A stretch of DNA of 10,230 nt, taken from contig CAZDTP010000094.1 in the NCBI GenBank assembly GCA_964508365.1, positions 1-10,230 on the forward strand. Reading direction: 5' to 3'. The first letter of the stretch is position 1. Each line of letters starts with the position of its first letter. The DNA is from an uncultured archaeon (GTDB lineage: Archaea; Asgardarchaeota; Lokiarchaeia; Sigyniarchaeales; SOKP01). The position numbers and the translations under genes were made by a program. This document shows, piece after piece, positions 387 to 10,228 of the stretch. Under the pieces are notes generated by a model. It was not told the DNA's origin. It searched no databases and worked only from the letters and a program-made list of their open reading frames with translations.

Positions 387-470
387 TTAAGATTTCTTTT
401 GTTTTTTACTTATAATGATTGCTACAATGGATAGAATACCAAGCAGGAAGAACAGATTATATCCGGGAAT
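387..470 (-). other. Loki-CTERM-like C-terminal sorting signal (IPGY-NLFFLLGILSIVAIII-SKKQKKS)
   Basis: Tripartite motif/TM/basic-tail architecture starting with IPGY at 470-459, as in the Loki-CTERM family and analogous to PGF-CTERM/LPxTG signals. Confidence 0.75.
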
Positions 471-1328
471 ATCCCCTCCTGGGACTTCTGGAGGTTCAAA
501 CCATCCAATAATTTCATAATTCTCAACTTCTTCTTTCAATGGATAAGAATCCATTGTAACTCTAACAGAATCGTAAAAAACGACTGGAGAATCTCCAATT
601 CCATCAACATCAGCATCAACTCCATTGTAATCATCCCAATAGTTACCGAGATAATTCGTGTAGGATTTATTGTCGTAAATGTACTTTAATTGTTTTGGTG
701 AATTCCACAGGTTGTTATTGCTTGTATTAGTTAAAGTAAAAACATCCATAACAGTAGTTTTAAGATTGTTTAAATAAAGAGTATTATAATTCGAATATCC
801 AAAATGCATACCCCTCTCATTGTCAAATAGATTCCCTATAATAGTATTGTTTTCGGAATATTCTAAATATAGTCCCCAACCATTATTATGAAAACTCGTA
901 TTATTGATCATCCCATTGAAAACTGATTCTAGCTTAATACCAGAATCCACCCAATTAATTCCACAATTAGAAAACGTACAATTTTCAATTTTAAAAAAAG
1001 CATTGGAATTTTTAATGAGTATGCAACTTCCCGAACCTCCAGCATCTATAATCAAATCTTCTATAACATAGGGTGCGGAATAAGTCCCATTCCCCGTACA
1101 AATTCCCGCAGCCTTTGCAGCAGTCCAATTATTATCAATACGAATTTTTCCCGATATTGCTGAGGTTTTTAGATTTATTTTATCTAAATTGATATCACCT
1201 TTATATTCCGAACTTTTATTGCTATTACCCGAAATAAGAATAAGATTAGTGATAACTATCGGTGAGAAGGCAAAAAACATTCCTAAAGCGATTAAAATTA
1301 TTATTTTTGATTTTGCATTTGATTTCAT
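387..1328 (-). CDS. Secreted/cell-surface right-handed parallel beta-helix (NosD/PbH1-like) protein with C-terminal Loki-CTERM-type anchor, 313 aa
   Basis: N-terminal basic + hydrophobic signal (MKSNAKSKIIILIALGMFFAFSPIVI). Asn-rich beta-helix turns (NNTSFHNNGWGLYLEYSENNTIIGNLF). NosD-like ending GNYWDDYNGVDADVDGIGDSP. Pro/Gly linker, then IPGY + TM helix + KKQKKS. Confidence 0.85.
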   Translation of the reverse strand: MKSNAKSKIIILIALGMFFAFSPIVITNLILISGNSNKSSEYKGDINLDKINLKTSAISGKIRIDNNWTAAKAAGICTGNGTYSAPYVIEDLIIDAGGSGSCILIKNSNAFFKIENCTFSNCGINWVDSGIKLESVFNGMINNTSFHNNGWGLYLEYSENNTIIGNLFDNERGMHFGYSNYNTLYLNNLKTTVMDVFTLTNTSNNNLWNSPKQLKYIYDNKSYTNYLGNYWDDYNGVDADVDGIGDSPVVFYDSVRVTMDSYPLKEEVENYEIIGWFEPPEVPGGDIPGYNLFFLLGILSIVAIIISKKQKKS

Positions 1329-2129: not shown

Positions 2130-2891
2130 ATGGGAAGTGGACCAAAAATTCTGCTCAATATTGAAGCGTTATCAACCGAGCATAAACCACCATCAGGATT
2201 TATGTTAAATCAATTTAAAAAATCAAATAGCCTATTCCTGGAAGAATACACGGTATATCTTGTTGGGCGAAGGCCAAACTTACCAGACGATTATTTAATG
2301 GATAAGATGGCAGATGATTATGCAAAAATGATCCGAAGGGAATTTAAAGGACCAGTTGATGTCATTGGAATATCAACAGGAGGACAGATTGCTCATTTTT
2401 TAGCCGCTGATCACCCCGACACTGTTCAAAAATTAGTCATCATATCATCAGCGTATCGATTGAGTGAAAAAGGAGTAGATATTGAGAGGAAAGCGGCTGA
2501 ATATTTTCAAAAAGAAAAATATGGAAAATCAATGGCAGCAATAATGGAACTGATATATCAATCTGGATTTAAAGGAGTTTTCATCAAATTATTCGTGAGA
2601 CTAATAGGAGGTATGATGTTCAGGAAAGTAGAATATCCAAACGATTTCTTGGTTGAAGTGAAAGCCGATCGCGAGATGAATTTCAAGGACAGATTATCCG
2701 AAATTAAAGCTCCTACCTTGATATTGAGTGGAGAATTAGATATTGGTTATTTGGCAGATGATGTTCGTACGACCGCAGAGGAAATACCAAATTCAGAATT
2801 GATTCTTTATAAAGGTTATGGACATAATCTCGCAATGTCTAATCGGGAGCAGGTGCTTAAGAAAACTTTAGAATTTCTAAAGAAGAATTGA
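2130..2891 (+). CDS. Alpha/beta-fold hydrolase (esterase/lactonase-like); N-terminus probably extends to 2047/2053 across a frameshift
   Basis: Nucleophile elbow G-I-S-T-G (Ser codon 2373-2375), acid in ILSGELD and His in YKGYGH form a Ser-Asp-His triad. The frame stays open upstream to 2067 (KIKDKYQVETGFFEDGLPYAK) with no ATG/GTG/TTG. TGA at 2889-2891. Confidence 0.9.
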   Translation: MGSGPKILLNIEALSTEHKPPSGFMLNQFKKSNSLFLEEYTVYLVGRRPNLPDDYLMDKMADDYAKMIRREFKGPVDVIGISTGGQIAHFLAADHPDTVQKLVIISSAYRLSEKGVDIERKAAEYFQKEKYGKSMAAIMELIYQSGFKGVFIKLFVRLIGGMMFRKVEYPNDFLVEVKADREMNFKDRLSEIKAPTLILSGELDIGYLADDVRTTAEEIPNSELILYKGYGHNLAMSNREQVLKKTLEFLKKN

Positions 2892-2901
2892 AATTAAATT
2901 T

Positions 2902-2974
2902 TGATTTGGAAAAGTATGGCTAACTTTTTAGAATAAAATTCAAACATTTCTTATATTTTATTCCATCCAAATCA
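2902..2974 (-). terminator. Nested stem-loop between convergent genes (terminator or 3' UTR element of the selenoprotein candidate)
   Basis: Minus strand: outer stem UGAUUUGGA (2974-2966) / UCCAAAUCA (2910-2902), 9 bp perfect. Inner stem UGGAAUAAAAU (2965-2955) / AUUUUAUUCUA (2939-2929), 11 bp with one G-U. Confidence 0.45.
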
Positions 2975-2977
2975 TAT

Positions 2978-3451
2978 TTATTTGCTTAACTTTTTAATTA
3001 TTTTAAATAATTCTTCATTTTCGGGAATGTCATCCATCGAATCGCTATAATATGCATATCTTATTATTGCTTGCTTATCTATTATTAGAAGTGCTGGCAT
3101 TCTCCCAAATTTTAAAGGTTTTACTTCTTGTTTTAACATTTTATTAACCTTTTTTTTAGCATCATAATATATAGGGTATTCTTTTGCATATTCGGATTCA
3201 AAATTTTGCGCATTTTCAAGGTTATCAGGTAAGATTGCGTATAAGATTGTATTTAATTCTTTGAATTTTGCATAGTCATTTCTCAATTTTTTTGAATGAG
3301 CTTTGGCATAAGGTCAACTTTTACTTCTAAATAATACTATCACTACGTTTTTATTCCCTTCAAATTCAAGTATATTGCTTGTTTCACTTCTAGAGTTTGG
3401 TAAACTAAACTCTTTGATTTTAGTACCCACTAAATTAAATTTATCTTTCAA
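2978..3451 (-). CDS. Peroxiredoxin-like (AhpC/TSA/redoxin family) protein with in-frame UGA at codon 46, probable selenoprotein, 157 aa
   Basis: Reading through TGA (plus tca 3314-3316) joins the track ORF to 45 upstream in-frame codons from TTG at 3451: MKDKFNLVGTKIKEFSLPNSRSETSNILEFEGNKNVVIVLFRSKS-U-PYAKAHSKKLRNDYAKF...GRMPALLIIDKQAIIRYAY. The upstream part has the redoxin N-terminus (VG..i.eFsLpn......l..f.g.k.vvivlfR) and the UGA sits at the C of the FR.xxCPxC-type active site. A GTGA SD-like motif lies 7 nt before the TTG, and an in-frame TAA at 3466-3464 bounds the ORF. Confidence 0.85.
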
Positions 3452-3610
3452 TTTGATTTCACTTTATTTTTTATTTTATTTTAAAATTAAATTACTATTT
3501 TTTTCTCAAATCAATATCCTTGTGCATAGGTGGGTTGTATCATTCCGACGAACCAAATTCTTCATATACAACAGCTTTCATAATATTTTGAATAAACATT
3601 GTATTTATAT

Positions 3611-3664
3611 ATTAAATTAAGTTAATATCGAAATTTTATTGATAATTTGAATTAAACTCATTAG
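3611..3664. repeat. Intergenic 54 bp element, copy 1 (imperfect dyad)
   Basis: ATTAAATTAAGTTAATATCGAAATTTTATTGATAATTTGAATTAAACTCATTAG; 47/54 identical, ungapped, to 5001-5054. Confidence 0.8.
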
Positions 3665-3702: not shown

Positions 3703-4722
3703 TTAGATTTGAAACATTACTAATTTTAAAATTACATAAACGCTATAGAATCCGATTAATAGACATCCTTCCCATCTTTTAAGTGTTTTTTCGCTCCATA
3801 ACAAATAAAGAGCTAAAGATAACGCCAAGAATAGAACAGGTATATCAAAAACCAGAATTATCAAGGGAACATTAAAATTAATTAGTATTGCTCCTGATCC
3901 TGTGGCTAATAAAATATCGCATATATTGGAACCTAATATATCTCCTACCGCGATTCCAAATGATCCTCTCCTAATAGCGGTTAAGTCAGCAATAAGTTCT
4001 GGTAAACTTGTGCCAAATCCAACTATTATTATTCCAATTACATTTTCAGGAATATGAAATTCTTTTGATATATCATGCGCTGAAAGTAATGAGGCCTCTG
4101 CTGCGATTATTAAGATAATGAGCCCAAAAAGCAAAGTACCCAAATCTCTAAGTGTTGACGATTCTTTACGAGGGCTCTCAACCGATTCAAACCTTACAGC
4201 ATCTATACGTTCCTTTTCAAGATATTTAATTTCTAGTTTAGCTTTTGTTAGATGTCGCTCACTCCAAATCACCAATGAGAGATAAAGGAAATATATTATT
4301 ATCATTAAAAGCGCTTCAAATTGGGTAAGGATTCCATCCAATGAGAAAAAAAGAAAAATCAATATAGAAATAAAGAGCATAGGTCCTTCTCTTCTCAATT
4401 CCCATTTACTAACGAAAATCGGTTGGCTAACGGCTAAAATTCCAATAATTAAAGTGATTTGAATCAAGAAAGAGCCAACTTTGTTTCCTATAACTATTCC
4501 ATCAATGTTAGGATCAATACCTAAAAGCTTATCCAAACCACCCATTATACTTACAGCAATTTCTGGTAAGCTAGTCCCAATCGATAAAATTGTCAGCCCT
4601 ACCATTATATGACTAATATTTAAGCGATCTGCTATGTTTTCAAGGCTAATTATCACAAATTTAGCACCAATATATAACCCCAAAAATCCTAATATTAGAA
4701 AAAGAAGTGAATATAACAGCAT
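3703..4722 (-). CDS. yrbG: Ca2+/cation antiporter (CaCA superfamily, YrbG/NCX_Mj-like Na+/Ca2+ exchanger), 339 aa
   Basis: About 10 hydrophobic segments in two homologous halves. Alpha-1 repeat SIGTSLPE...GNKVGSFLIQ and alpha-2 repeat GFGTSLPE...GDILGSNICD. The symbol is family-level only. Confidence 0.92.
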   Translation of the reverse strand: MLLYSLLFLILGFLGLYIGAKFVIISLENIADRLNISHIMVGLTILSIGTSLPEIAVSIMGGLDKLLGIDPNIDGIVIGNKVGSFLIQITLIIGILAVSQPIFVSKWELRREGPMLFISILIFLFFSLDGILTQFEALLMIIIYFLYLSLVIWSERHLTKAKLEIKYLEKERIDAVRFESVESPRKESSTLRDLGTLLFGLIILIIAAEASLLSAHDISKEFHIPENVIGIIIVGFGTSLPELIADLTAIRRGSFGIAVGDILGSNICDILLATGSGAILINFNVPLIILVFDIPVLFLALSLALYLLWSEKTLKRWEGCLLIGFYSVYVILKLVMFQI

Positions 4723-4754: not shown

Positions 4755-5000
4755 CTTTAATGGAGCGATTATAACGAGACCTCGAAAATCATTGCGAGTA
4801 ATAACTTTGGAGTTGGTATACATATAATTGCTAGTTTACATTATCATACTCTATAGCCAAGGGTTATAGAATCAATACTACTTAAATTAATTTTCGACGG
4901 GTGAAACTTGATTATTAAATTTATAAATTTTCATAATTTTTTTATTTGTCGAATTCATTTCCATAACTGATTTTTATAGGATTCTGTACTAAAAATATGT

Positions 5001-5054
5001 ATAAAATTAAGTTAAAATCGAAATTTTAGTGATAATTTAGATTTAAATCATTAG
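5001..5054. repeat. Intergenic 54 bp element, copy 2 (imperfect dyad)
   Basis: ATAAAATTAAGTTAAAATCGAAATTTTAGTGATAATTTAGATTTAAATCATTAG; contains ATCGAAATT-N8-AATTTAGAT (8/9 complementary); lies 1,390 bp from copy 1. Confidence 0.8.
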
Positions 5055-5152: not shown

Positions 5153-8100
5153 TTAAGTATTAATATTATTTTGGTTGTTTTCAGATTGCTCAAATGTTTC
5201 TTTCTGAATCGCATCTTTTCCAGCTTTTGGTGCGACCTTACTCTTTAATTGCTTTTCTAAAGGATGGATCTTTTCTGCGTAATTATCTTCGATTAATTGA
5301 TCTCTTGAACGAATTTCAAGACCCATAGATTTTGGGTTCTTCAATTTGCTCTTGAATTTTCGAATCTTTCTCACTTGTTTAGGATATTTAAGCACTCGTT
5401 GATATGCAAATAAATAACCTCCTAAACCCACTGCGGCACCTACACCGAGGATGGTCAAAATTTGGAATAATAAAACATCCTCGGGGGGTTGTACAACATT
5501 TAGAGTAATTGTGAATCGTTCGAAATCATAGTCATCACCAGCATAGACGGAAATAGTAATAACAAATGTTCCGACTCTGAGATTTGATATAGTGCCTTCA
5601 TAAATGCCGTCATTTTCAGGATCGGTAAGAGTACCTTGACCGTATGTCCAAGTGTAGGTAACAGTTGCATTTAATACATATGTATTGAAATCTAAGTCTA
5701 AGAGTCTTATCTTTAGTTGATAATTTTGTCCGGGTTGGCGGTTAATAACCGTTTCCCCCGAAACCGTAGTGATATTTGTTCGGATTCTGTCTACTTGTAT
5801 CCGCAGGAGTGCAGAAGATGATTGATAGTTAGCACGTTGAGCAAAAATTGTTAAAAATCTAACTCCGATGTCCAATTGAGTAGTATCTACAGAGATAGAA
5901 TAGTGTTGGAGTAAAGGATTCTCTGTAAGATTTAAAGATAAGCCCTCCCCAACTAATTGAATTGTTGCTCCAGAAATGCCTAAACCAGTATCAAATTCTA
6001 GGTATTTTACTGTCACATTTAATAATTTCCGTAATGGAAGCGTTAACGTTCTATCAATTGTTTTATTCAATCCGTTAAGGAAAATGTGCAAATCGGTTTC
6101 TTTTACAATAATTTCAATTCGTACGATAAGTGTTTGTGGCTGATAATTTGCTCTTTTTGCGTACAAAGTAAGTAAGTTAATTCCAAAGTTTAAATCATCC
6201 GAATCAATGGTAACATTGTATTGGTTGTATATCGAGTGCTTAGTTAGATTTAAATCTATTCCTTCACCAAAAATAATAACTTCTGCATTATCAATGAAAA
6301 GTTTTGCGTAATCTTCGTAAATGACCGTAACATTAATTAGTTCACCTATGATTACTTCAATTGATTTATCTAATGTTTCATTATTACCATTTAAGAATAA
6401 TTGTAAGTTTGATGCTTTTTCTTTAACTTCTATGGTAAATAATATAGATTGAGATACATATCCTTGCTTTTGGGCAAAAATGGTAAGGAAATTAATACCC
6501 TGCTCCAAATCAATCGTTCTAATCGAAATATTATAGTGTTGAAGGATAGCATTCTCGGTTAAGTTATCATTGAGTGCACCGGTTAGTTTTAAATTTGCAT
6601 TTGATACAAAGCTACTATCAGAGGAATCTGTAAAATATACGGTAACATTTAATGTTTGATCAATTTCAGCAGCGATGTACCTACTTGAAGTGAGATTATC
6701 ACCATCAATGTATAATTCAAGATTAGATCCTCTTTCCAATACATTTAATTTAATGTTCTTAATTGAATGGGTATAGTTTTCTTTATCGGCAGAGATTACT
6801 AAGAAATGAACTCCAACGCCTAAAACTTCGAGATTCAATGTATAATTATATTGTTTAAAAGTTGGATGTAAAGTTAGAGTCTCTGATATTCCAAGGCCAG
6901 TAAGCTCCACTGTTGCACCTGGGATGAAAACAGGAGTAATATCCTCGTAAATAGCAGTAATATTTAAAACATCATTAATAGAGATACTGTAAAATTCAAT
7001 AGTACTACTATTAACCCCATTTAGTAGAACATCTAAGGTTGTATCGCGCTCATTTACCGTGATTAAAATGCTCACTAGTGAAATGGTGTAGTTTTCTTTC
7101 TTAGCATATATTGAAAGCACATTACTACCTAAGCTAAATTCGTTTGAGTTTTTCATTAATGTATATTGAGCTATATTAGGAGATAAAGGATTTAACATGG
7201 TACTCCCTTCTCTTAATTCAACATTAGCAGAATCAATAAAAGTCCCAGTAAAATCTTCATATATGGCAGTTATATTTATTATTTCACCATAGGTAACTTC
7301 AATGGCGGTTCTTTCTAAATCATCAAGAAATATCGTCAGTACAGTGTCTCTTTCTGTGACTATAATAGAGATGCTTACTAAAGCTGCAGAGTAATTTTCT
7401 TTGTTTGCATATATTGCTAGCAAGTTTGTTCCTAAGTCCAAATTTTTAGTGTTGATTGTCAAATTATACTGAGTAAATGTTGGATGTGTGGAGAATGTAT
7501 ATAGAGTCGTACCTCCTTCTCTTAATTCACACGTAGCCCCTATAATGAAAGCATCAGAAAAATCTTTATAGATTATAGTGATATTAATATTTTCATTATA
7601 TGGTTTTTCTATTACAGTAGTGGGCGTCTCTTCAAGATATATATCTAAACTTGTATCTCGTTCGTCGATAGTCAATGTTATGCTTGCGAATGCTGCAGAA
7701 TAATTATCTTGCTTCGCATAGAGCGTCAATATATTAACACCTAAGTTCAATTCATTTGTGCTAATCTCTACATAATACTGACTAAAAGAAGATTCCGTCA
7801 ATGAATAAACTACAATTGATCCCTCTCGTAATTCAACAGTGGCCCCATCAATAAAAGAACCTGATAAATCGTTGTAAATGGCTGTTATATTAAGTAATTC
7901 ACCGTGTGGGTAACTTATGGAGGTTGTAGTTGTATGGTTCAAGATTGATACTATAGTTGTAGGTCTTTCTTCAACTGTTATGGTAATCAGTTGTGATGCG
8001 ATGCTATAGTTATCCTTTTGGGCTAAAAGTGTCAGAAAATTATTTCCAATTGAAAGGTCATAAGTATTCACGGTTAGATTATAGAGTTGACCAGATTGGC

Positions 8101-10228
8101 TAAACATTTTTGAATAATCCGTTCCAATTAATTGGAGTGATGCTCCATCAATGAAATTATCGGTTATAGTATCGTTATATGAGACTGTAATATTAAATAG
8201 TTCATTCCACGCGATTATGATTGAATTCGATTCCGTTCCGTTCAATTCCAAGTTATCGAGATATGTAGTTCTCGATGTTACCGTAATTTTAAATCTGATA
8301 TTTAATGAGGTATAGTTCTCTTTTGAAGCATACACTGTTAAAAATGTGCTTCCAACACCTAAATCATAAGTATTAATTGAAATATAATATTGTTCATTCG
8401 CAAGATCTTCGCTTAATGTCTTTGTGGATCCAACACCAGTTAACTCCACTGTTGCCCCGCCGATATGAGTAAATGGAGCATTTTCTATATCACGATATTG
8501 TATCGTAATGTTTAAGTTTTCATTCCATTCAGTCGTCCATTCTTTCTCAATTGTTCGATTATTCATGTCAAGAAATAGCTGAATTTCCGTATCTCGTGAA
8601 AGAACCTCAACAGTAATTTGGAACTGTTGAGTAGTATAATATCGTTTGCTTGCTGTTAACGTGAGATAACTCGCCCCAACTCCTAAATCAGTTGAATTAA
8701 TAATCGTGAAATAATTATCGAATGTCCCTTGAGGTAATGATATAGGTGTTATCCCACTTCCAGTTAATTGGATGTCCGCATCGGAAATAAAACCTCCAGT
8801 ACTATTCTTATATACAAAAGTAATGTTCAAATTCTTATTAAAAGTAACTTGCGTTGATTTTTCCGTCGTTCTGTCTACGTCGTTTAAAAATAAATTATAT
8901 GATGTGGTATCAGGAGGGGTGTATATTCCGTAAGAAATTTGTAAGGAAACATCATCTATGGATATTTTTATAGTGCTATTTAACAAAAACTCATCACCAA
9001 TATATACTTGAATTGTGAGGTTCACATGTTTGTTCGGAGATATGAATGGTGTAACATCAAATCCTCCTTGCTTTATTTCTCTTAATGTTCCATTAGCTGT
9101 ATTTAAGTTTACTGTTTCTCCCAGTTGATTATTGTTAATGAGTATTCTGAATTCAGAATTTGGAGAGGAAGTATATTCTGACCAACTAGCATTTATTATG
9201 TATTTAAAGTTTAACGTGGCATTTTCAATCTCGTAATAAGCTGGAATTAAATCTCCATTTTGCTTCCATGAGGCTCTATTAAGTTGATTTATCTTCTTTT
9301 CGTATTCAAATGTCAAGTTCACTGATTTAATTAGAATTTCGTGAAATTCATCATTATCATAAGTATCAGAGTTATCTGCGGTATAAATTCTAATTCCTAA
9401 AGTCACTGTGAAATTAAAATTGTCGGAGTTAAGAACCGAAGTTAGATAGAAAAGCAAAACATCTTCAGGTACAGATATTAAATTTTTATTTGTCATTAAA
9501 TAATTTCCAGGCGGATTACCCGATCCTAGATTAGTTGGTTGATAGTATGCAATCTCATATTTTTTATTTTTGGATAAATCAGAAAGCAAAACATAGAATC
9601 TAACATAATCGTATGATTCTCTTTGATTTAATAAAGCACCTCCATCTGTGGCTATGGTGTCTCCTAATACATCGACATCTCTATCGACTGTAGCATTTAC
9701 AACTACTTGGATTGAGGCAGAGGTGATTATATAATCAGACATATCCACGGGCATAGTGAAATTTCTATCCCAATGCACACTGGGATTTTGATTTGCATCG
9801 CGGTCGTCAAATAGATGATATACTTTCAGACCTTCTGAATCTGTAAAATTGCTTGTTGGTCCCCTTGGAAAATCTGGATTTGGAACGGCTAACCAGTTTG
9901 CACCGATAATAGGATTTTCACTCAAAGAGAAAGTTCTTTTTTCTCCCGTGACCTCATAATCTGCAACCCCGCTGCTTATGCCTAGGCTTAAATCTGAAGT
10001 ATCTCCTAAAATTTCACTAGTCCAATATGTACTTGAACCCGTAGAAAAGTTGCCATATTTTATCCATTCTTCAGTATAATAATCTGTCTCAGATACTTGA
10101 AGCAAATCTTGTTCTGAAGAATTATTATTTTCACCTCTGGAATCAAATATGATGTTCCGAATACCAGGAATTTGGATGAACATGCTGAGTGCTAATAAGA
10201 TTAATAGAAAAGAAGGAAAAACAATCCG
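5153..10228 (-). CDS. Giant single-pass cell-surface glycoprotein (>1,690 aa, 5' partial): ~420 aa N-terminal region, 10 conserved + 1 divergent ~101-108 aa beta-sandwich-like repeats, TM helix, basic cytoplasmic tail
   Basis: The frame remains open past the ATG at 10183 to the edge (RIVFPSFLLILLALS-MFIQ, a hydrophobic signal/TM segment). Repeats with LN[IV]T..Y, FI.gA.v.L and L..G...Lt..A.k.nY start at 8914, 8596, 8272, 7966, 7660, 7351, 7048, 6733, 6418, 6103 and 5785. TM at about 5476-5402, followed by KYPKQVRKIRKFKSKLK. Confidence 0.9.
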   Translation of the reverse strand, partial: RIVFPSFLLILLALSMFIQIPGIRNIIFDSRGENNNSSEQDLLQVSETDYYTEEWIKYGNFSTGSSTYWTSEILGDTSDLSLGISSGVADYEVTGEKRTFSLSENPIIGANWLAVPNPDFPRGPTSNFTDSEGLKVYHLFDDRDANQNPSVHWDRNFTMPVDMSDYIITSASIQVVVNATVDRDVDVLGDTIATDGGALLNQRESYDYVRFYVLLSDLSKNKKYEIAYYQPTNLGSGNPPGNYLMTNKNLISVPEDVLLFYLTSVLNSDNFNFTVTLGIRIYTADNSDTYDNDEFHEILIKSVNLTFEYEKKINQLNRASWKQNGDLIPAYYEIENATLNFKYIINASWSEYTSSPNSEFRILINNNQLGETVNLNTANGTLREIKQGGFDVTPFISPNKHVNLTIQVYIGDEFLLNSTIKISIDDVSLQISYGIYTPPDTTSYNLFLNDVDRTTEKSTQVTFNKNLNITFVYKNSTGGFISDADIQLTGSGITPISLPQGTFDNYFTIINSTDLGVGASYLTLTASKRYYTTQQFQITVEVLSRDTEIQLFLDMNNRTIEKEWTTEWNENLNITIQYRDIENAPFTHIGGATVELTGVGSTKTLSEDLANEQYYISINTYDLGVGSTFLTVYASKENYTSLNIRFKITVTSRTTYLDNLELNGTESNSIIIAWNELFNITVSYNDTITDNFIDGASLQLIGTDYSKMFSQSGQLYNLTVNTYDLSIGNNFLTLLAQKDNYSIASQLITITVEERPTTIVSILNHTTTTSISYPHGELLNITAIYNDLSGSFIDGATVELREGSIVVYSLTESSFSQYYVEISTNELNLGVNILTLYAKQDNYSAAFASITLTIDERDTSLDIYLEETPTTVIEKPYNENINITIIYKDFSDAFIIGATCELREGGTTLYTFSTHPTFTQYNLTINTKNLDLGTNLLAIYANKENYSAALVSISIIVTERDTVLTIFLDDLERTAIEVTYGEIINITAIYEDFTGTFIDSANVELREGSTMLNPLSPNIAQYTLMKNSNEFSLGSNVLSIYAKKENYTISLVSILITVNERDTTLDVLLNGVNSSTIEFYSISINDVLNITAIYEDITPVFIPGATVELTGLGISETLTLHPTFKQYNYTLNLEVLGVGVHFLVISADKENYTHSIKNIKLNVLERGSNLELYIDGDNLTSSRYIAAEIDQTLNVTVYFTDSSDSSFVSNANLKLTGALNDNLTENAILQHYNISIRTIDLEQGINFLTIFAQKQGYVSQSILFTIEVKEKASNLQLFLNGNNETLDKSIEVIIGELINVTVIYEDYAKLFIDNAEVIIFGEGIDLNLTKHSIYNQYNVTIDSDDLNFGINLLTLYAKRANYQPQTLIVRIEIIVKETDLHIFLNGLNKTIDRTLTLPLRKLLNVTVKYLEFDTGLGISGATIQLVGEGLSLNLTENPLLQHYSISVDTTQLDIGVRFLTIFAQRANYQSSSALLRIQVDRIRTNITTVSGETVINRQPGQNYQLKIRLLDLDFNTYVLNATVTYTWTYGQGTLTDPENDGIYEGTISNLRVGTFVITISVYAGDDYDFERFTITLNVVQPPEDVLLFQILTILGVGAAVGLGGYLFAYQRVLKYPKQVRKIRKFKSKLKNPKSMGLEIRSRDQLIEDNYAEKIHPLEKQLKSKVAPKAGKDAIQKETFEQSENNQNNINT
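5483..8914 (-). repeat. Tandem protein-level repeat array (11 units of 101-108 aa; Ig-like fold inferred)
   Basis: Unit lengths 106, 108, 102, 102, 103, 101, 105, 105, 105, 106 and 101 aa, read from the translation. Alternating hydrophobic beta-strand pattern; units are linked by E/S-R-D-T-like junctions. Confidence 0.85.

What the first reader, a model, noticed from the sequence alone, without database searches (positions are those of the whole stretch)
2978..3451. Hidden selenoprotein: peroxiredoxin-like gene with in-frame UGA at the catalytic position
Seen: the 102 aa track ORF lacks any active site, but 45 upstream in-frame codons form a redoxin N-terminus and the only interrupting stop (TGA, 3316-3314) falls in ...VIVLFRSKS-[UGA]-PYAKAH..., exactly where AhpC/TSA-like proteins have the catalytic Cys of R.xxCPxC. 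Established: UGA encodes selenocysteine, and a peroxiredoxin-like family is among the selenoproteins reported for Lokiarchaeota, whose Sec system is intermediate between archaeal and eukaryotic. Inference: a 157 aa Sec enzyme that standard gene callers truncate or miss.
Basis: partly seen in the sequence, partly recalled or inferred. Interest (0 to 1): 0.85.

Follow-up and report, generated by a model that had tools for sequence, protein, structure and literature searches.

The report
Selenocysteine Prx-like redoxin gene, Lokiarchaeia
This is a real selenocysteine-encoding thioredoxin-fold "peroxiredoxin-like" gene of an Asgard (Lokiarchaeia) archaeon that gene callers cut short; the protein family is already published, but its 3' signal RNA is not the textbook type.

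Summary
Window 2978-3451 (minus strand) is one 157-codon gene with a single in-frame TGA (3316-3314). One AhpC/TSA domain spans that TGA, and the AlphaFold model is confident (pLDDT 94).

All full-length orthologues checked carry TGA at the same column: 96 loci from relatives and metagenomes, and 79 from species-representative Asgard genomes. More distant homologues have Cys there. Selection is as strong before the TGA as after it.

The genome has the full Sec machinery:
- SepSecS
- a Sec-containing SelD
- PSTK
- EFSec
- a tRNA-Sec gene with two introns, which standard finders miss

The family is already known: PrxL (Mariotti 2016) and Prx-like (Huang 2024), whose data include this UPYA sub-type.

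Two corrections. Sec aligns with the first Cys of a thioredoxin CxxC box, not with the peroxiredoxin catalytic Cys, which is Ala here. The protein has no Cys at all.

One extra. The 3'UTR holds a covariation-supported three-way junction with a near-invariant UAGCCA loop. It follows every orthologue and lacks the published AUGA_GA SECIS core.

Verdict: genuine selenoprotein gene, a new member of a known kind. Interest is moderate, mainly for the unusual SECIS candidate.

The parts
2978..3451 (-). Full prxL coding sequence: 157 codons, TTG start at 3451-3449, TAA stop at 2980-2978. It encodes a thioredoxin-fold AhpC/TSA-domain protein.
   Evidence: Translation. Pfam AhpC-TSA 1.1e-20 over residues 8-132. 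AlphaFold2 pLDDT 94.4, pTM 0.90. Best structural neighbours are BCP/PrxQ-type peroxiredoxins, TM 0.83-0.86. Orthologues start MKDKF at the same position.
3314..3316 (-). In-frame TGA, the selenocysteine codon (residue 46). In the model it lies immediately before helix 47-58, after strand 35-40.
   Evidence: TGA at this column in 96/96 and 79/79 orthologues. Cys at this column in more distant homologues (PMC11227280 supplement). pN/pS is 0.33 upstream and 0.43 downstream of it. Secondary structure.
3305..3307 (-). GCC (Ala49), at the +3 position of the redox box. Most orthologues have Cys here, and true peroxiredoxins have their peroxidatic Cys here.
   Evidence: PDB alignments put Prx T/S opposite U46 and the Prx catalytic Cys position opposite A49. 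The +3 residue is C 61, A 29, S 4, T 2 in one set and C 62, A 14, S 2, T 1 in the other. The non-Cys forms make one clade with 100/100 support.
2978..3286 (-). The 102-aa ORF that standard gene callers report. It is an artefactual truncation of the gene.
   Evidence: ORF list. The exact 102-aa product is on record in NCBI and Logan for a 10230-nt contig.
2903..2973 (-). Conserved 3'UTR three-way junction, beginning 4 nt after the stop codon. It is the candidate SECIS of this gene.
   Evidence: Covariance model R1 scores 88.2 bits, E=7e-16. This is the only significant hit in the 4.07-Mb genome; the next has E=0.57. Covariation: 92.9% of cells paired, 17 pairs with double changes against 5.7 in shuffles, 0/500 shuffles as high. 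Replicated on 78 other sequences. Present after the stop in 79 of 80 genome loci.
2967..2973 (-). P1 5' arm, GAUUUGG. It pairs with 2903-2909 (CCAAAUC).
   Evidence: Helix 1 is 99% paired, and 4 of its 7 pairs show compensatory changes.
2929..2965 (-). P2 hairpin: an 11-bp stem (2955-2965 with 2929-2939) and a 15-nt A-rich apical loop (2940-2954). In orthologues with Cys at +3 it is often a 9-bp stem with an 11-12-nt loop of the form GAAAA..AG, like the top of a lokiSECIS.
   Evidence: 10 of the 11 pairs show compensatory changes.
2911..2927 (-). P3 short hairpin. Its 7-nt loop UAGCCAU (2916-2922) is nearly invariant across orthologues.
   Evidence: UAGCCA[C/A/U] is the loop in 69 of 78 distinct sequences. 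The G-C pair closing the stem switches to C-G in 10 sequences.

Best explanation
The region encodes a genuine selenoprotein. It is a 157-residue thioredoxin-fold 'peroxiredoxin-like' (PrxL) oxidoreductase of a Lokiarchaeia genome.

Shown: UGA codon 46 lies at the conserved redox-box position, and the genome carries the archaeal/eukaryotic-type Sec pathway (tRNA-Sec, PSTK, SepSecS, Sec-containing SelD, EFSec).

Inferred: UGA 46 is decoded as selenocysteine by that pathway.

Inferred from exclusive co-occurrence: recoding is directed by the conserved three-way-junction RNA that starts 4 nt after the stop codon. This RNA keeps the hairpin-with-A-rich-loop and the three-helix layout of the genome's other lokiSECIS elements. 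It lacks their AUGA_GA core and has an invariant UAGCCA hairpin loop instead.

Shown for the protein: Sec46 sits just before the first long helix, at the position of the attacking Cys of CxxC redoxins. The second box residue is Ala, and there is no Cys anywhere.

Inferred mechanism: the selenolate attacks an oxidant, either a peroxide or a disulfide or sulfenic substrate. This gives a selenenic acid or a mixed selenenylsulfide, which an external thiol or redoxin resolves. That is a one-selenol cycle like 1-Cys peroxiredoxins, glutathione peroxidase or monothiol redoxins, rather than an internal Se-S cycle.
For: - **One domain across the TGA.** Pfam AhpC-TSA 1.1e-20. AF2 model pLDDT 94.4 with U46 between strand 35-40 and helix 47-58. 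Prx/BCP fold neighbours.
- **TGA conserved.** 96/96 loci and 79/79 species-representative Asgard genomes at 37-95% identity. Cys at the same column in remoter homologues.
- **Selection.** pN/pS is 0.33 for codons 2-45 and 0.43 for codons 47-157.
- **TGA is still a stop.** It ends the neighbouring gene 2130-2891 and 11 orthologues of this gene.
- **Machinery.** SepSecS 477 bits. SelD with GUSCK. PSTK is the best family, matched full length. EFSec 237.8 bits against 133 for EF-Tu. tRNA-Sec at C19:8044-8194 is called SeC(tca) once its two introns are removed.
- **Same family as published PrxL/Prx-like selenoproteins.** ...LFRSKSXPYAKAH... sequences are in the PMC11227280 data.
- **3'UTR element.** Covariation supports it. 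It is unique in the genome. It follows 79/80 orthologues.
Against: - No protein-level evidence of Sec insertion. There are no proteomics, labelling or transcript data.
- The 3'UTR lacks the AUGA_GA quartet that both published surveys treat as the signature of Asgard SECIS elements. How this UGA is recoded is therefore not explained by the known model.
- EFSec and PSTK score below NCBIfam's curated cut-offs.
- tRNA-Sec needs two introns removed, and the exact splice points were not determined.
- The peroxiredoxin catalytic motif is not kept, so peroxidase activity is a guess.
Confidence: 0.88

Rival explanations
1. Nonsense pseudogene: the TGA is a recent inactivating mutation, and only decaying remnants of a redoxin remain.
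For: Standard callers report only a 102-aa fragment lacking the active site. The usual second Cys is also lost.
Against: The same TGA is in 175 of 175 orthologous loci spanning 37-95% identity. There are no other stops or frameshifts. Purifying selection acts on both sides. A dedicated conserved 3'UTR RNA follows the gene.
Confidence: 0.01
2. The TGA is read through as a standard amino acid, for example Trp or Cys. This could be by a genome-wide code change or by near-cognate suppression, and would not involve selenocysteine.
For: Public 157-aa entries show W at this position. No canonical SECIS is present.
Against: Those W entries are table-4 gene calls on short low-GC contigs; the translation matches 'with_TGA=W' only. 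TGA terminates the neighbouring gene and 11 orthologues of this same gene. The position aligns with redox-active Cys in homologues. A complete Sec pathway and other Sec genes exist in the genome.
Confidence: 0.04
3. The gene is a selenoprotein, but the three-way junction is not its SECIS. The junction could be a stability or terminator element, or a regulatory RNA. In that case the true recoding signal lies elsewhere, for example inside the coding region.
For: The junction lacks AUGA_GA. T-runs follow it in many orthologues, so it could be part of transcript 3' end formation. It is found nowhere else in the genome, unlike a generic signal.
Against: It is the only conserved structure between the stop codon and the T-run. 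It co-occurs with the gene in 79/80 genomes. It sits where every other lokiSECIS of this genome sits, 12-22 nt after the stop. It shares their three-helix layout and often their 9-bp stem with an 11-12-nt GAAAA..AG loop. SelD's lokiSECIS is also gene-specific in form (PMC4989117). No scan for a conserved structure inside the coding region was run, so this rival stays open.
Confidence: 0.2
4. Function rival: the protein is a classical peroxiredoxin in which Sec replaces the peroxidatic Cys (the TxxU type known in bacteria).
For: Best Pfam family is AhpC-TSA. Best structural matches are BCP/PrxQ peroxiredoxins.
Against: Pairwise alignments to 3drn, 2ywn and 2cx3 put Sec opposite the Prx Thr/Ser and put Ala opposite the peroxidatic Cys. 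The Prx Pro of PxxxTxxC is Arg here. The family is defined in the literature as CxxC/UxxC 'Prx-like', not TxxC. The 2026 review lists TxxU Prx and UxxC/UxxU Prx-like separately.
Confidence: 0.1

Closest known systems
PrxL / Prx-like thiol:disulfide oxidoreductase selenoproteins of Asgard archaea (Mariotti et al. 2016, PMC4989117; Huang et al. 2024, PMC11227280)
   Same: AhpC/TSA thioredoxin-fold domain. Sec at the first position of the redox box. No Cys outside the box. Lokiarchaeia host with archaeal Sec machinery. Close relatives (...LFRSKSXPYAKAH......XPYSKAH...) are in the 2024 sequence set.
   Different: The second box residue is Ala (UxxA), not Cys or Sec. The literature lists UxxC and UxxU. 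The exact sequence is not in the 2024 set. The 3'UTR has no AUGA-9bp-11nt-9bp-GA lokiSECIS, which the 2016 paper reports for all PrxL genes.
The genome's second PrxL paralogue (contig C79, ...FFRGNWUSHCKKH..., 176-residue open frame)
   Same: Same superfamily, with a single Sec at the same box position, in the same genome.
   Different: It keeps the UxxC box and carries a textbook lokiSECIS 15 nt after its stop: AUGA, 9 bp, an 11-nt loop AAAAAUAGUUG, 9 bp, GA. It was not detected as a homologue of the window protein at E<=0.01.
lokiSECIS / eSECIS-like elements (eukaryote-like SECIS of Asgard archaea)
   Same: 3'UTR location right after the stop. A hairpin with an A-rich apical loop, often ending AG. 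In this genome, a lower closing stem plus a short hairpin on the 3' side.
   Different: No AUGA_GA non-Watson-Crick quartet at the base of the hairpin; those positions are variable or Watson-Crick paired. The P1 sequence and the UAGCCA loop of P3 are strongly conserved. The elements after the genome's other selenoprotein genes were not among the significant hits of model R1.
BCP/PrxQ-type peroxiredoxins (e.g. Sulfolobus Bcp1 3drn, Aeropyrum BCP 2cx3)
   Same: Overall fold: TM 0.83-0.86, rmsd 2.1-2.3 A over about 150 residues. Weak sequence similarity, E 1e-6 to 1e-5.
   Different: The PxxxT/SxxC catalytic motif is replaced by RSKSUPYA. The redox residue is shifted three positions towards the N-terminus.

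Membership tests
Asgard PrxL (Prx-like) selenoprotein | AhpC/TSA-type thioredoxin-fold domain | tested here: met
   Pfam PF00578 E=1.1e-20, 74 bits against a cut-off of 26. AF2 model and Foldseek matches.
Asgard PrxL (Prx-like) selenoprotein | In-frame UGA at the first position of the CxxC redox box, with Cys in some homologues (Sec/Cys pair) | tested here: met
   TGA at the same column in 96/96 and 79/79 orthologues. CPFC/CPYC/CPMC in remoter homologues. Haloarchaeal CPKC in the PMC11227280 alignment.
Asgard PrxL (Prx-like) selenoprotein | Second redox-box residue is Cys or Sec (UxxC / UxxU) | tested here: not met
   Ala49 (GCC 3307-3305). The UxxA/S/T forms make one 100/100-supported clade nested among UxxC forms. 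It is therefore a derived sub-type, not an outsider.
Asgard PrxL (Prx-like) selenoprotein | No Cys outside the redox box | tested here: met
   The 157-residue translation has no Cys at all.
Asgard PrxL (Prx-like) selenoprotein | Host genome encodes tRNA-Sec, PSTK, SepSecS, EFSec and SelD/SPS | tested here: met
   EFSec and PSTK are the top families but score below the curated cut-offs.
Asgard PrxL (Prx-like) selenoprotein | lokiSECIS in the 3'UTR: AUGA, 9-bp stem, 11-nt A-rich loop, 9 bp, GA | tested here: not met
   No such element lies within -30..+400 of the stop in 78 and 79 distinct orthologous loci, using a relaxed pattern that does hit 255 sites genome-wide. The strict version of the pattern (no stem mismatch, loop ending in G) found the canonical elements after the genome's other selenoprotein genes. 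A three-way junction takes its place here.
Canonical peroxiredoxin (Prx, BCP/PrxQ subfamily) | PxxxT/SxxC active-site motif with a peroxidatic Cys (or Sec, TxxU) | tested here: not met
   Alignments to 3drn, 2ywn and 2cx3 place U46 opposite T/S and A49 opposite the peroxidatic Cys position. R42 stands where the Pro is.
Canonical peroxiredoxin (Prx, BCP/PrxQ subfamily) | Prx fold | tested here: met
   Foldseek top hits are 3drn, 3hjp, 5enu and 1xxu, TM 0.82-0.86.
Canonical peroxiredoxin (Prx, BCP/PrxQ subfamily) | Peroxidase activity | not testable with these tools
   Needs an enzyme assay. The PrxL family has never been characterised experimentally (PMC4989117).
Eukaryote-like SECIS (eSECIS-like) element | GA/GA quartet (AUGA_GA or AUGA_AA) at the base of the upper stem | tested here: not met
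   The junction nucleotides flanking P2 are variable (5' side TGG/AAG/AAT/AGG...; 3' side TTT/TTA/ATA...) and often Watson-Crick paired.
Eukaryote-like SECIS (eSECIS-like) element | Unpaired A-rich motif in the apical loop | tested here: inconclusive
   The loop here is AUAAGAAAUGUUUGA. GAAA occurs in the loop of 39 of 78 orthologues, and many loops read GAAAA..AG as in canonical lokiSECIS.
Eukaryote-like SECIS (eSECIS-like) element | Directs Sec insertion at an upstream UGA | not testable with these tools
   Needs a reporter assay in a Sec-competent archaeon.

The most novel reading that the evidence does not exclude
This widespread PrxL subfamily (N-terminus MKDKF) may be recoded by a separate class of Asgard SECIS. 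That class is a fully base-paired three-way junction with a near-invariant UAGCCA hairpin loop and no AUGA_GA kink-turn core. If so, the Asgard Sec machinery does not strictly need the eukaryote-like core, or it has a second recognition mode. In addition, the sub-clade in this window (UxxA, no Cys) would be a natural single-selenol enzyme with no thiol of its own.
Probability: 0.45. Interest if true: 0.65.

Novelty: new member of a known kind. Interest (0 to 1): 0.42.

Why it matters
**For annotation.** This gene, and hundreds like it in Asgard genomes, is deposited either as a 102-aa fragment without its active site or as a 157-aa protein with a false Trp. Any redox or selenium budget of these organisms is therefore off.

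**For biology.** The protein family is known but has never been characterised. The main argument that Asgard archaea bridge archaeal and eukaryotic Sec decoding rests on the AUGA_GA core of their SECIS elements. Here is a selenoprotein gene that always carries UGA and never carries that core in about 150 distinct loci. It offers a natural test of which parts of the signal are really needed.

**For the enzyme.** The cysteine-free UxxA form is a clean case for asking what a lone selenol does in a thioredoxin fold.

Tried and rejected
- **Rfam scan of the window (E up to 10).** It found no SECIS or other RNA family, only a chance miRNA-like hit.
- **tRNA-Sec by standard tools.** ARAGORN with and without intron mode and Rfam RF01852 all failed on the whole genome. 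The weak RF01852 hits are Leu/Pro/Ser-type tRNAs. Two pattern scans of my own that required a contiguous anticodon arm also found nothing, as did Rfam on the EFSec/SepSecS contig. The gene was finally found as two GC-rich islands upstream of SepSecS.
- **An AUGA-led hairpin in this 3'UTR.** AUGA at 2975, a 12-bp stem with one mismatch, a 20-nt loop, then AA. Rejected: AUGA is not conserved there (ACGA, CCGA, AGCA... in orthologues), and covariation supports the P1/P2/P3 fold instead.
- **RNAalifold on a raw MAFFT alignment of the 3'UTRs.** It recovered only P1, so a trimmed alignment and a hand-set structure were needed.
- **GC-rich orthologues (L034, L036-L039).** Model R1 does not detect them, although their MFE folds show the same three helices.
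- **Pairing of the UAGCCA loop with codons just after the UGA.** UGGC of Trp-His occurs in UxxC forms. Considered and dropped because it is absent from the UxxA clade.
- **The 2016 paper's own SECIS sequences.** No supplement text is held for that paper. I could not check whether its PrxL.2 belongs to this subfamily.
- **The 2024 paper's SECIS tables (S4).** Not held either.

Full report
**1. The observation**

On the minus strand, the frame that starts at TTG 3451-3449 and ends at TAA 2980-2978 has 157 codons. It has one internal stop, TGA at 3316-3314, in the context VIVLFRSKS-U-PYAKAH. A plain ORF listing shows only the 102-aa piece 2978-3286. Read through, the product matches Pfam AhpC-TSA from model position 1 to 123 of 124 (residues 8-132, E=1.1e-20). 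The TGA therefore lies inside a single domain.

**2. Is the TGA a sense codon?**

Homology search.
- A search of 5.8 billion proteins returned two kinds of relatives. One kind is 157-aa proteins with W at position 46. The other is about 102-aa fragments that start after the TGA.
- The W forms are gene calls made under a TGA=Trp table. P0002 translates from its contig 'with_TGA=W' only.
- The window's own 102-aa fragment is what NCBI holds.

Six-frame searches.
- In 40 related genomes, 24 full-length or near full-length orthologues (39-95% identity) were found. Each has exactly one TGA, and it is always in L[FL]Rxxx-U-P[YF]x.
- The set was extended with 80 metagenome loci and 80 loci from species-representative genomes. 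The codon at that column is TGA in 96/96 and 79/79 loci, and never Cys.
- More distant homologues have Cys there (CPFC, CPYC, CPMC). Haloarchaeal relatives in the published alignment do too.

Other lines of evidence.
- Across 24 distinct 157-codon orthologues, pN/pS is 0.33 for codons 2-45 and 0.43 for codons 47-157. The part upstream of the TGA is as much protein-coding as the rest.
- TGA is not reassigned. It terminates the neighbouring gene 2130-2891 and is the real stop of 11 orthologues of this same gene.

**3. Sec machinery in the same genome (4.07 Mb, 149 contigs; the window is contig C94)**

- SepSecS: 477 bits on TIGR03531.
- SelD: has its own in-frame TGA in ...KIYGUSCKLG....
- PSTK: its best family is TIGR03574, matched full length at 154 bits, below the cut-off.
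- EFSec: TIGR00475 at 237.8 bits against a cut-off of 242. The next family, EF-Tu, scores 133.
- tRNA-Sec: missed by ARAGORN and Rfam. It lies at C19:8044-8194, directly upstream of SepSecS.
  - It has a 9-bp acceptor stem, a G discriminator, an encoded CCA, anticodon loop CUUCAA and a long variable arm.
  - It has two introns, one in the anticodon loop and one in the T-loop.
  - After removal of both introns in silico, ARAGORN calls tRNA-SeC(tca). A T-loop intron was described for Lokiarchaeum tRNA-Sec (PMC4989117).
- Other selenoprotein genes in the genome (HdrA-VhuD on C53, a second PrxL on C79, and two more on C6 and C8) carry textbook lokiSECIS elements.

**4. What the protein is**

- The AlphaFold2 model built on 29 sequences is confident (pLDDT 94.4, pTM 0.90). 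It shows a thioredoxin-type fold with U46 in the short loop between strand 35-40 and helix 47-58.
- The best structural matches are BCP/PrxQ peroxiredoxins, AhpE and ResA, with TM up to 0.86.
- Sequence alignments to solved BCPs put U46 opposite the Thr/Ser of the peroxiredoxin T/SxxC motif. They put Ala49 opposite the peroxidatic Cys position.
The protein fails the peroxiredoxin motif test while passing the fold test.

**5. Relation to the literature**

- Mariotti et al. 2016 named PrxL as one of five Lokiarchaeota selenoprotein families.
- Huang et al. 2024 found Prx-like selenoproteins in 43% of Sec-using Asgard archaea.
- The 2024 sequence file contains XPYC 47 times, XPFC 8, XPYA 4 and XPYS 3. 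It includes ...LFRSKSXPYAKAH... from Lokiarchaeia MAGs.
- One of those sequences (GCA_019894955) matches the fragment I recovered from a same-genus genome (L029), by my reading and not by a computed comparison. This places the window in Lokiarchaeia.
- The exact window sequence is not in that file.
- The gene is therefore a new member of a known kind.
- The 2026 review lists only UxxC and UxxU for this family. The UxxA/S/T forms exist in public data but are not discussed.
- In a maximum-likelihood tree of 77 sequences, the non-Cys forms make one clade (100/100, 22 rows) nested among UxxC forms, plus one separate Ser case. The resolving Cys was lost essentially once, and Sec was kept afterwards.
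- One genome of the genus (G007) has both forms.

**6. The 3'UTR**

Structure.
- Only 86 nt separate the stop codon from the convergent hydrolase gene.
- Starting 4 nt after the stop, all orthologues share a 65-75-nt element.
- Its fold is a three-way junction:
  - P1, GAUUUGG/CCAAAUC.
  - P2, a 9-12-bp hairpin with an 11-17-nt A-rich loop.
  - P3, a 4-5-bp hairpin with the loop UAGCCA[C/A/U].

Covariation.
- On a 40-sequence alignment, 92.9% of cells pair. 17 of 23 pairs show double changes against 5.7 in shuffles (0/500 as high). Sliding the partners drops pairing to 27-55%.
- This was replicated on 78 further distinct sequences: 93.2% paired, 18 pairs with double changes, 0/500. That alignment was fitted to the model, so it leans towards the structure.

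Distribution.
- The covariance model finds the element once in the window's genome (2903-2973, 88 bits). The next hit has E=0.57.
- It finds the element directly after the stop in 79 of 80 genome loci. The missing one is cut by a contig end.
- GC-rich orthologues that the model misses still fold into the same three helices with different sequences, for example CCUGGCC/GGCCAGG for P1.

Comparison with the published lokiSECIS.
- The published signature is AUGA, a 9-bp stem, an 11-nt loop, 9 bp, then GA.
- It is absent from -30..+400 of the stop in 78 and 79 distinct loci under a relaxed pattern.
- The strict version of that pattern found the canonical elements of the same genome.
- In MFE folds, those canonical elements and the SelD element also have a lower stem and a short hairpin on the 3' side. 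Their apical loops (GAAAAUAUUAG, AAAAACAAUAG) resemble P2 loops of many orthologues (GAAAAAAUGAG). This similarity of layout was seen, not tested by covariation.
- My reading is that the junction is a derived or parallel form of the lokiSECIS that has lost the kink-turn-like core. I hold this as inference at about 45-50%. The alternative, that it is a stability or termination element with the recoding signal elsewhere, is not excluded.

**7. Mechanism**

Shown:
- The gene structure.
- The conserved Sec codon.
- The machinery.
- The fold.
- The position of Sec.
- The absence of any Cys.
- The conserved 3' RNA.

Inferred:
- EFSec delivers Sec-tRNA-Sec to UGA 46 under the direction of the 3' junction, 340 nt downstream.
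- The selenolate is the only redox centre, and an external thiol or redoxin regenerates it.
- Whether the substrate is a peroxide or a protein or small-molecule disulfide cannot be told from sequence.

**8. Verdict**

It is not a new kind of selenoprotein. Its remaining interest lies in the systematic mis-annotation, the cysteine-free UxxA sub-clade, and above all the gene-specific SECIS candidate without an AUGA_GA core, which is conserved across Asgard lineages.

Noticed in passing
own genome G000, contig C19:8044-8194 (+), locus L141:8044-8194: The tRNA-Sec gene has two introns: about 28 nt in the anticodon loop and about 28-31 nt in the T-loop. It lies immediately upstream of SepSecS, with EFSec 5 kb away on the same contig. 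ARAGORN and Rfam tRNA-Sec both miss it, so intron-rich Asgard genomes may be wrongly scored as lacking tRNA-Sec.
   Followed up: yes
own genome G000: C79 (AUGA at 2126, +), C53 (25514, -), C8 (45873, -), C6 (66549, -); SelD 3'UTR just below C6:91383 (-): The canonical lokiSECIS elements of this genome, and the SelD element, are each followed by a short GC-rich hairpin and closed by a lower stem in MFE folds. This is a three-helix, k-junction-like layout that the published descriptions do not stress. Some of these hairpin loops (UGCCC, CGCAA) recur in the P3 loops of prxL elements from other Asgard families.
   Followed up: partly
loci L174, L182 (Freyarchaeota), L198, L202 (Atabeyarchaeia), L179, L185, L197 (Jordarchaeia), plus others labelled Hod-, Hermod-, Odin-archaeota: Genomes labelled as Asgard lineages that the 2024 survey describes as apparently lacking the Sec trait carry this prxL with an in-frame TGA and the three-way junction. 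Their Sec machinery was not checked here, and the NCBI labels may be unreliable.
   Followed up: no
L143 (DATKTW010000112.1) and L215 (DATKTP010000126.1): MAGs titled 'Candidatus Nanopelagicaceae bacterium SMAG_U14091' (95% identical gene) and 'Candidatus Deferrimicrobium sp. SMAG_U14084' carry this Asgard gene. They are probably mislabelled or mixed bins.
   Followed up: no
window 3606-3664 and 4996-5054: A 59-nt direct repeat (86% identity, 1390 nt apart) brackets the Na/Ca-exchanger gene 3703-4722. It lies in the intergenic regions upstream of prxL and downstream of the giant surface-protein gene.
   Followed up: partly
L103:409-480 and 1074-1144; L113:411-483 and 1077-1150; L222:211-283 and 876-949: These loci hold two copies of the three-way junction about 665 nt apart on the same strand. 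This implies tandem prxL paralogues, each with its own element.
   Followed up: no
L046 (G036:C422) and PMC11227280 supplement file 79: A different PrxL type has two Sec codons in the box (..NWUEHU.., ..NWXHHX..). This matches the published PrxL.1 putative diselenide form.
   Followed up: no
window 5153-10183 (-), 387-1328 (-), 2130-2891 (+): The neighbours are a 1676-aa ORF (not examined here), a NosD/beta-helix protein, and an alpha/beta hydrolase whose stop codon is TGA. None has an evident redox link to prxL, and the gene context differs among orthologues.
   Followed up: partly
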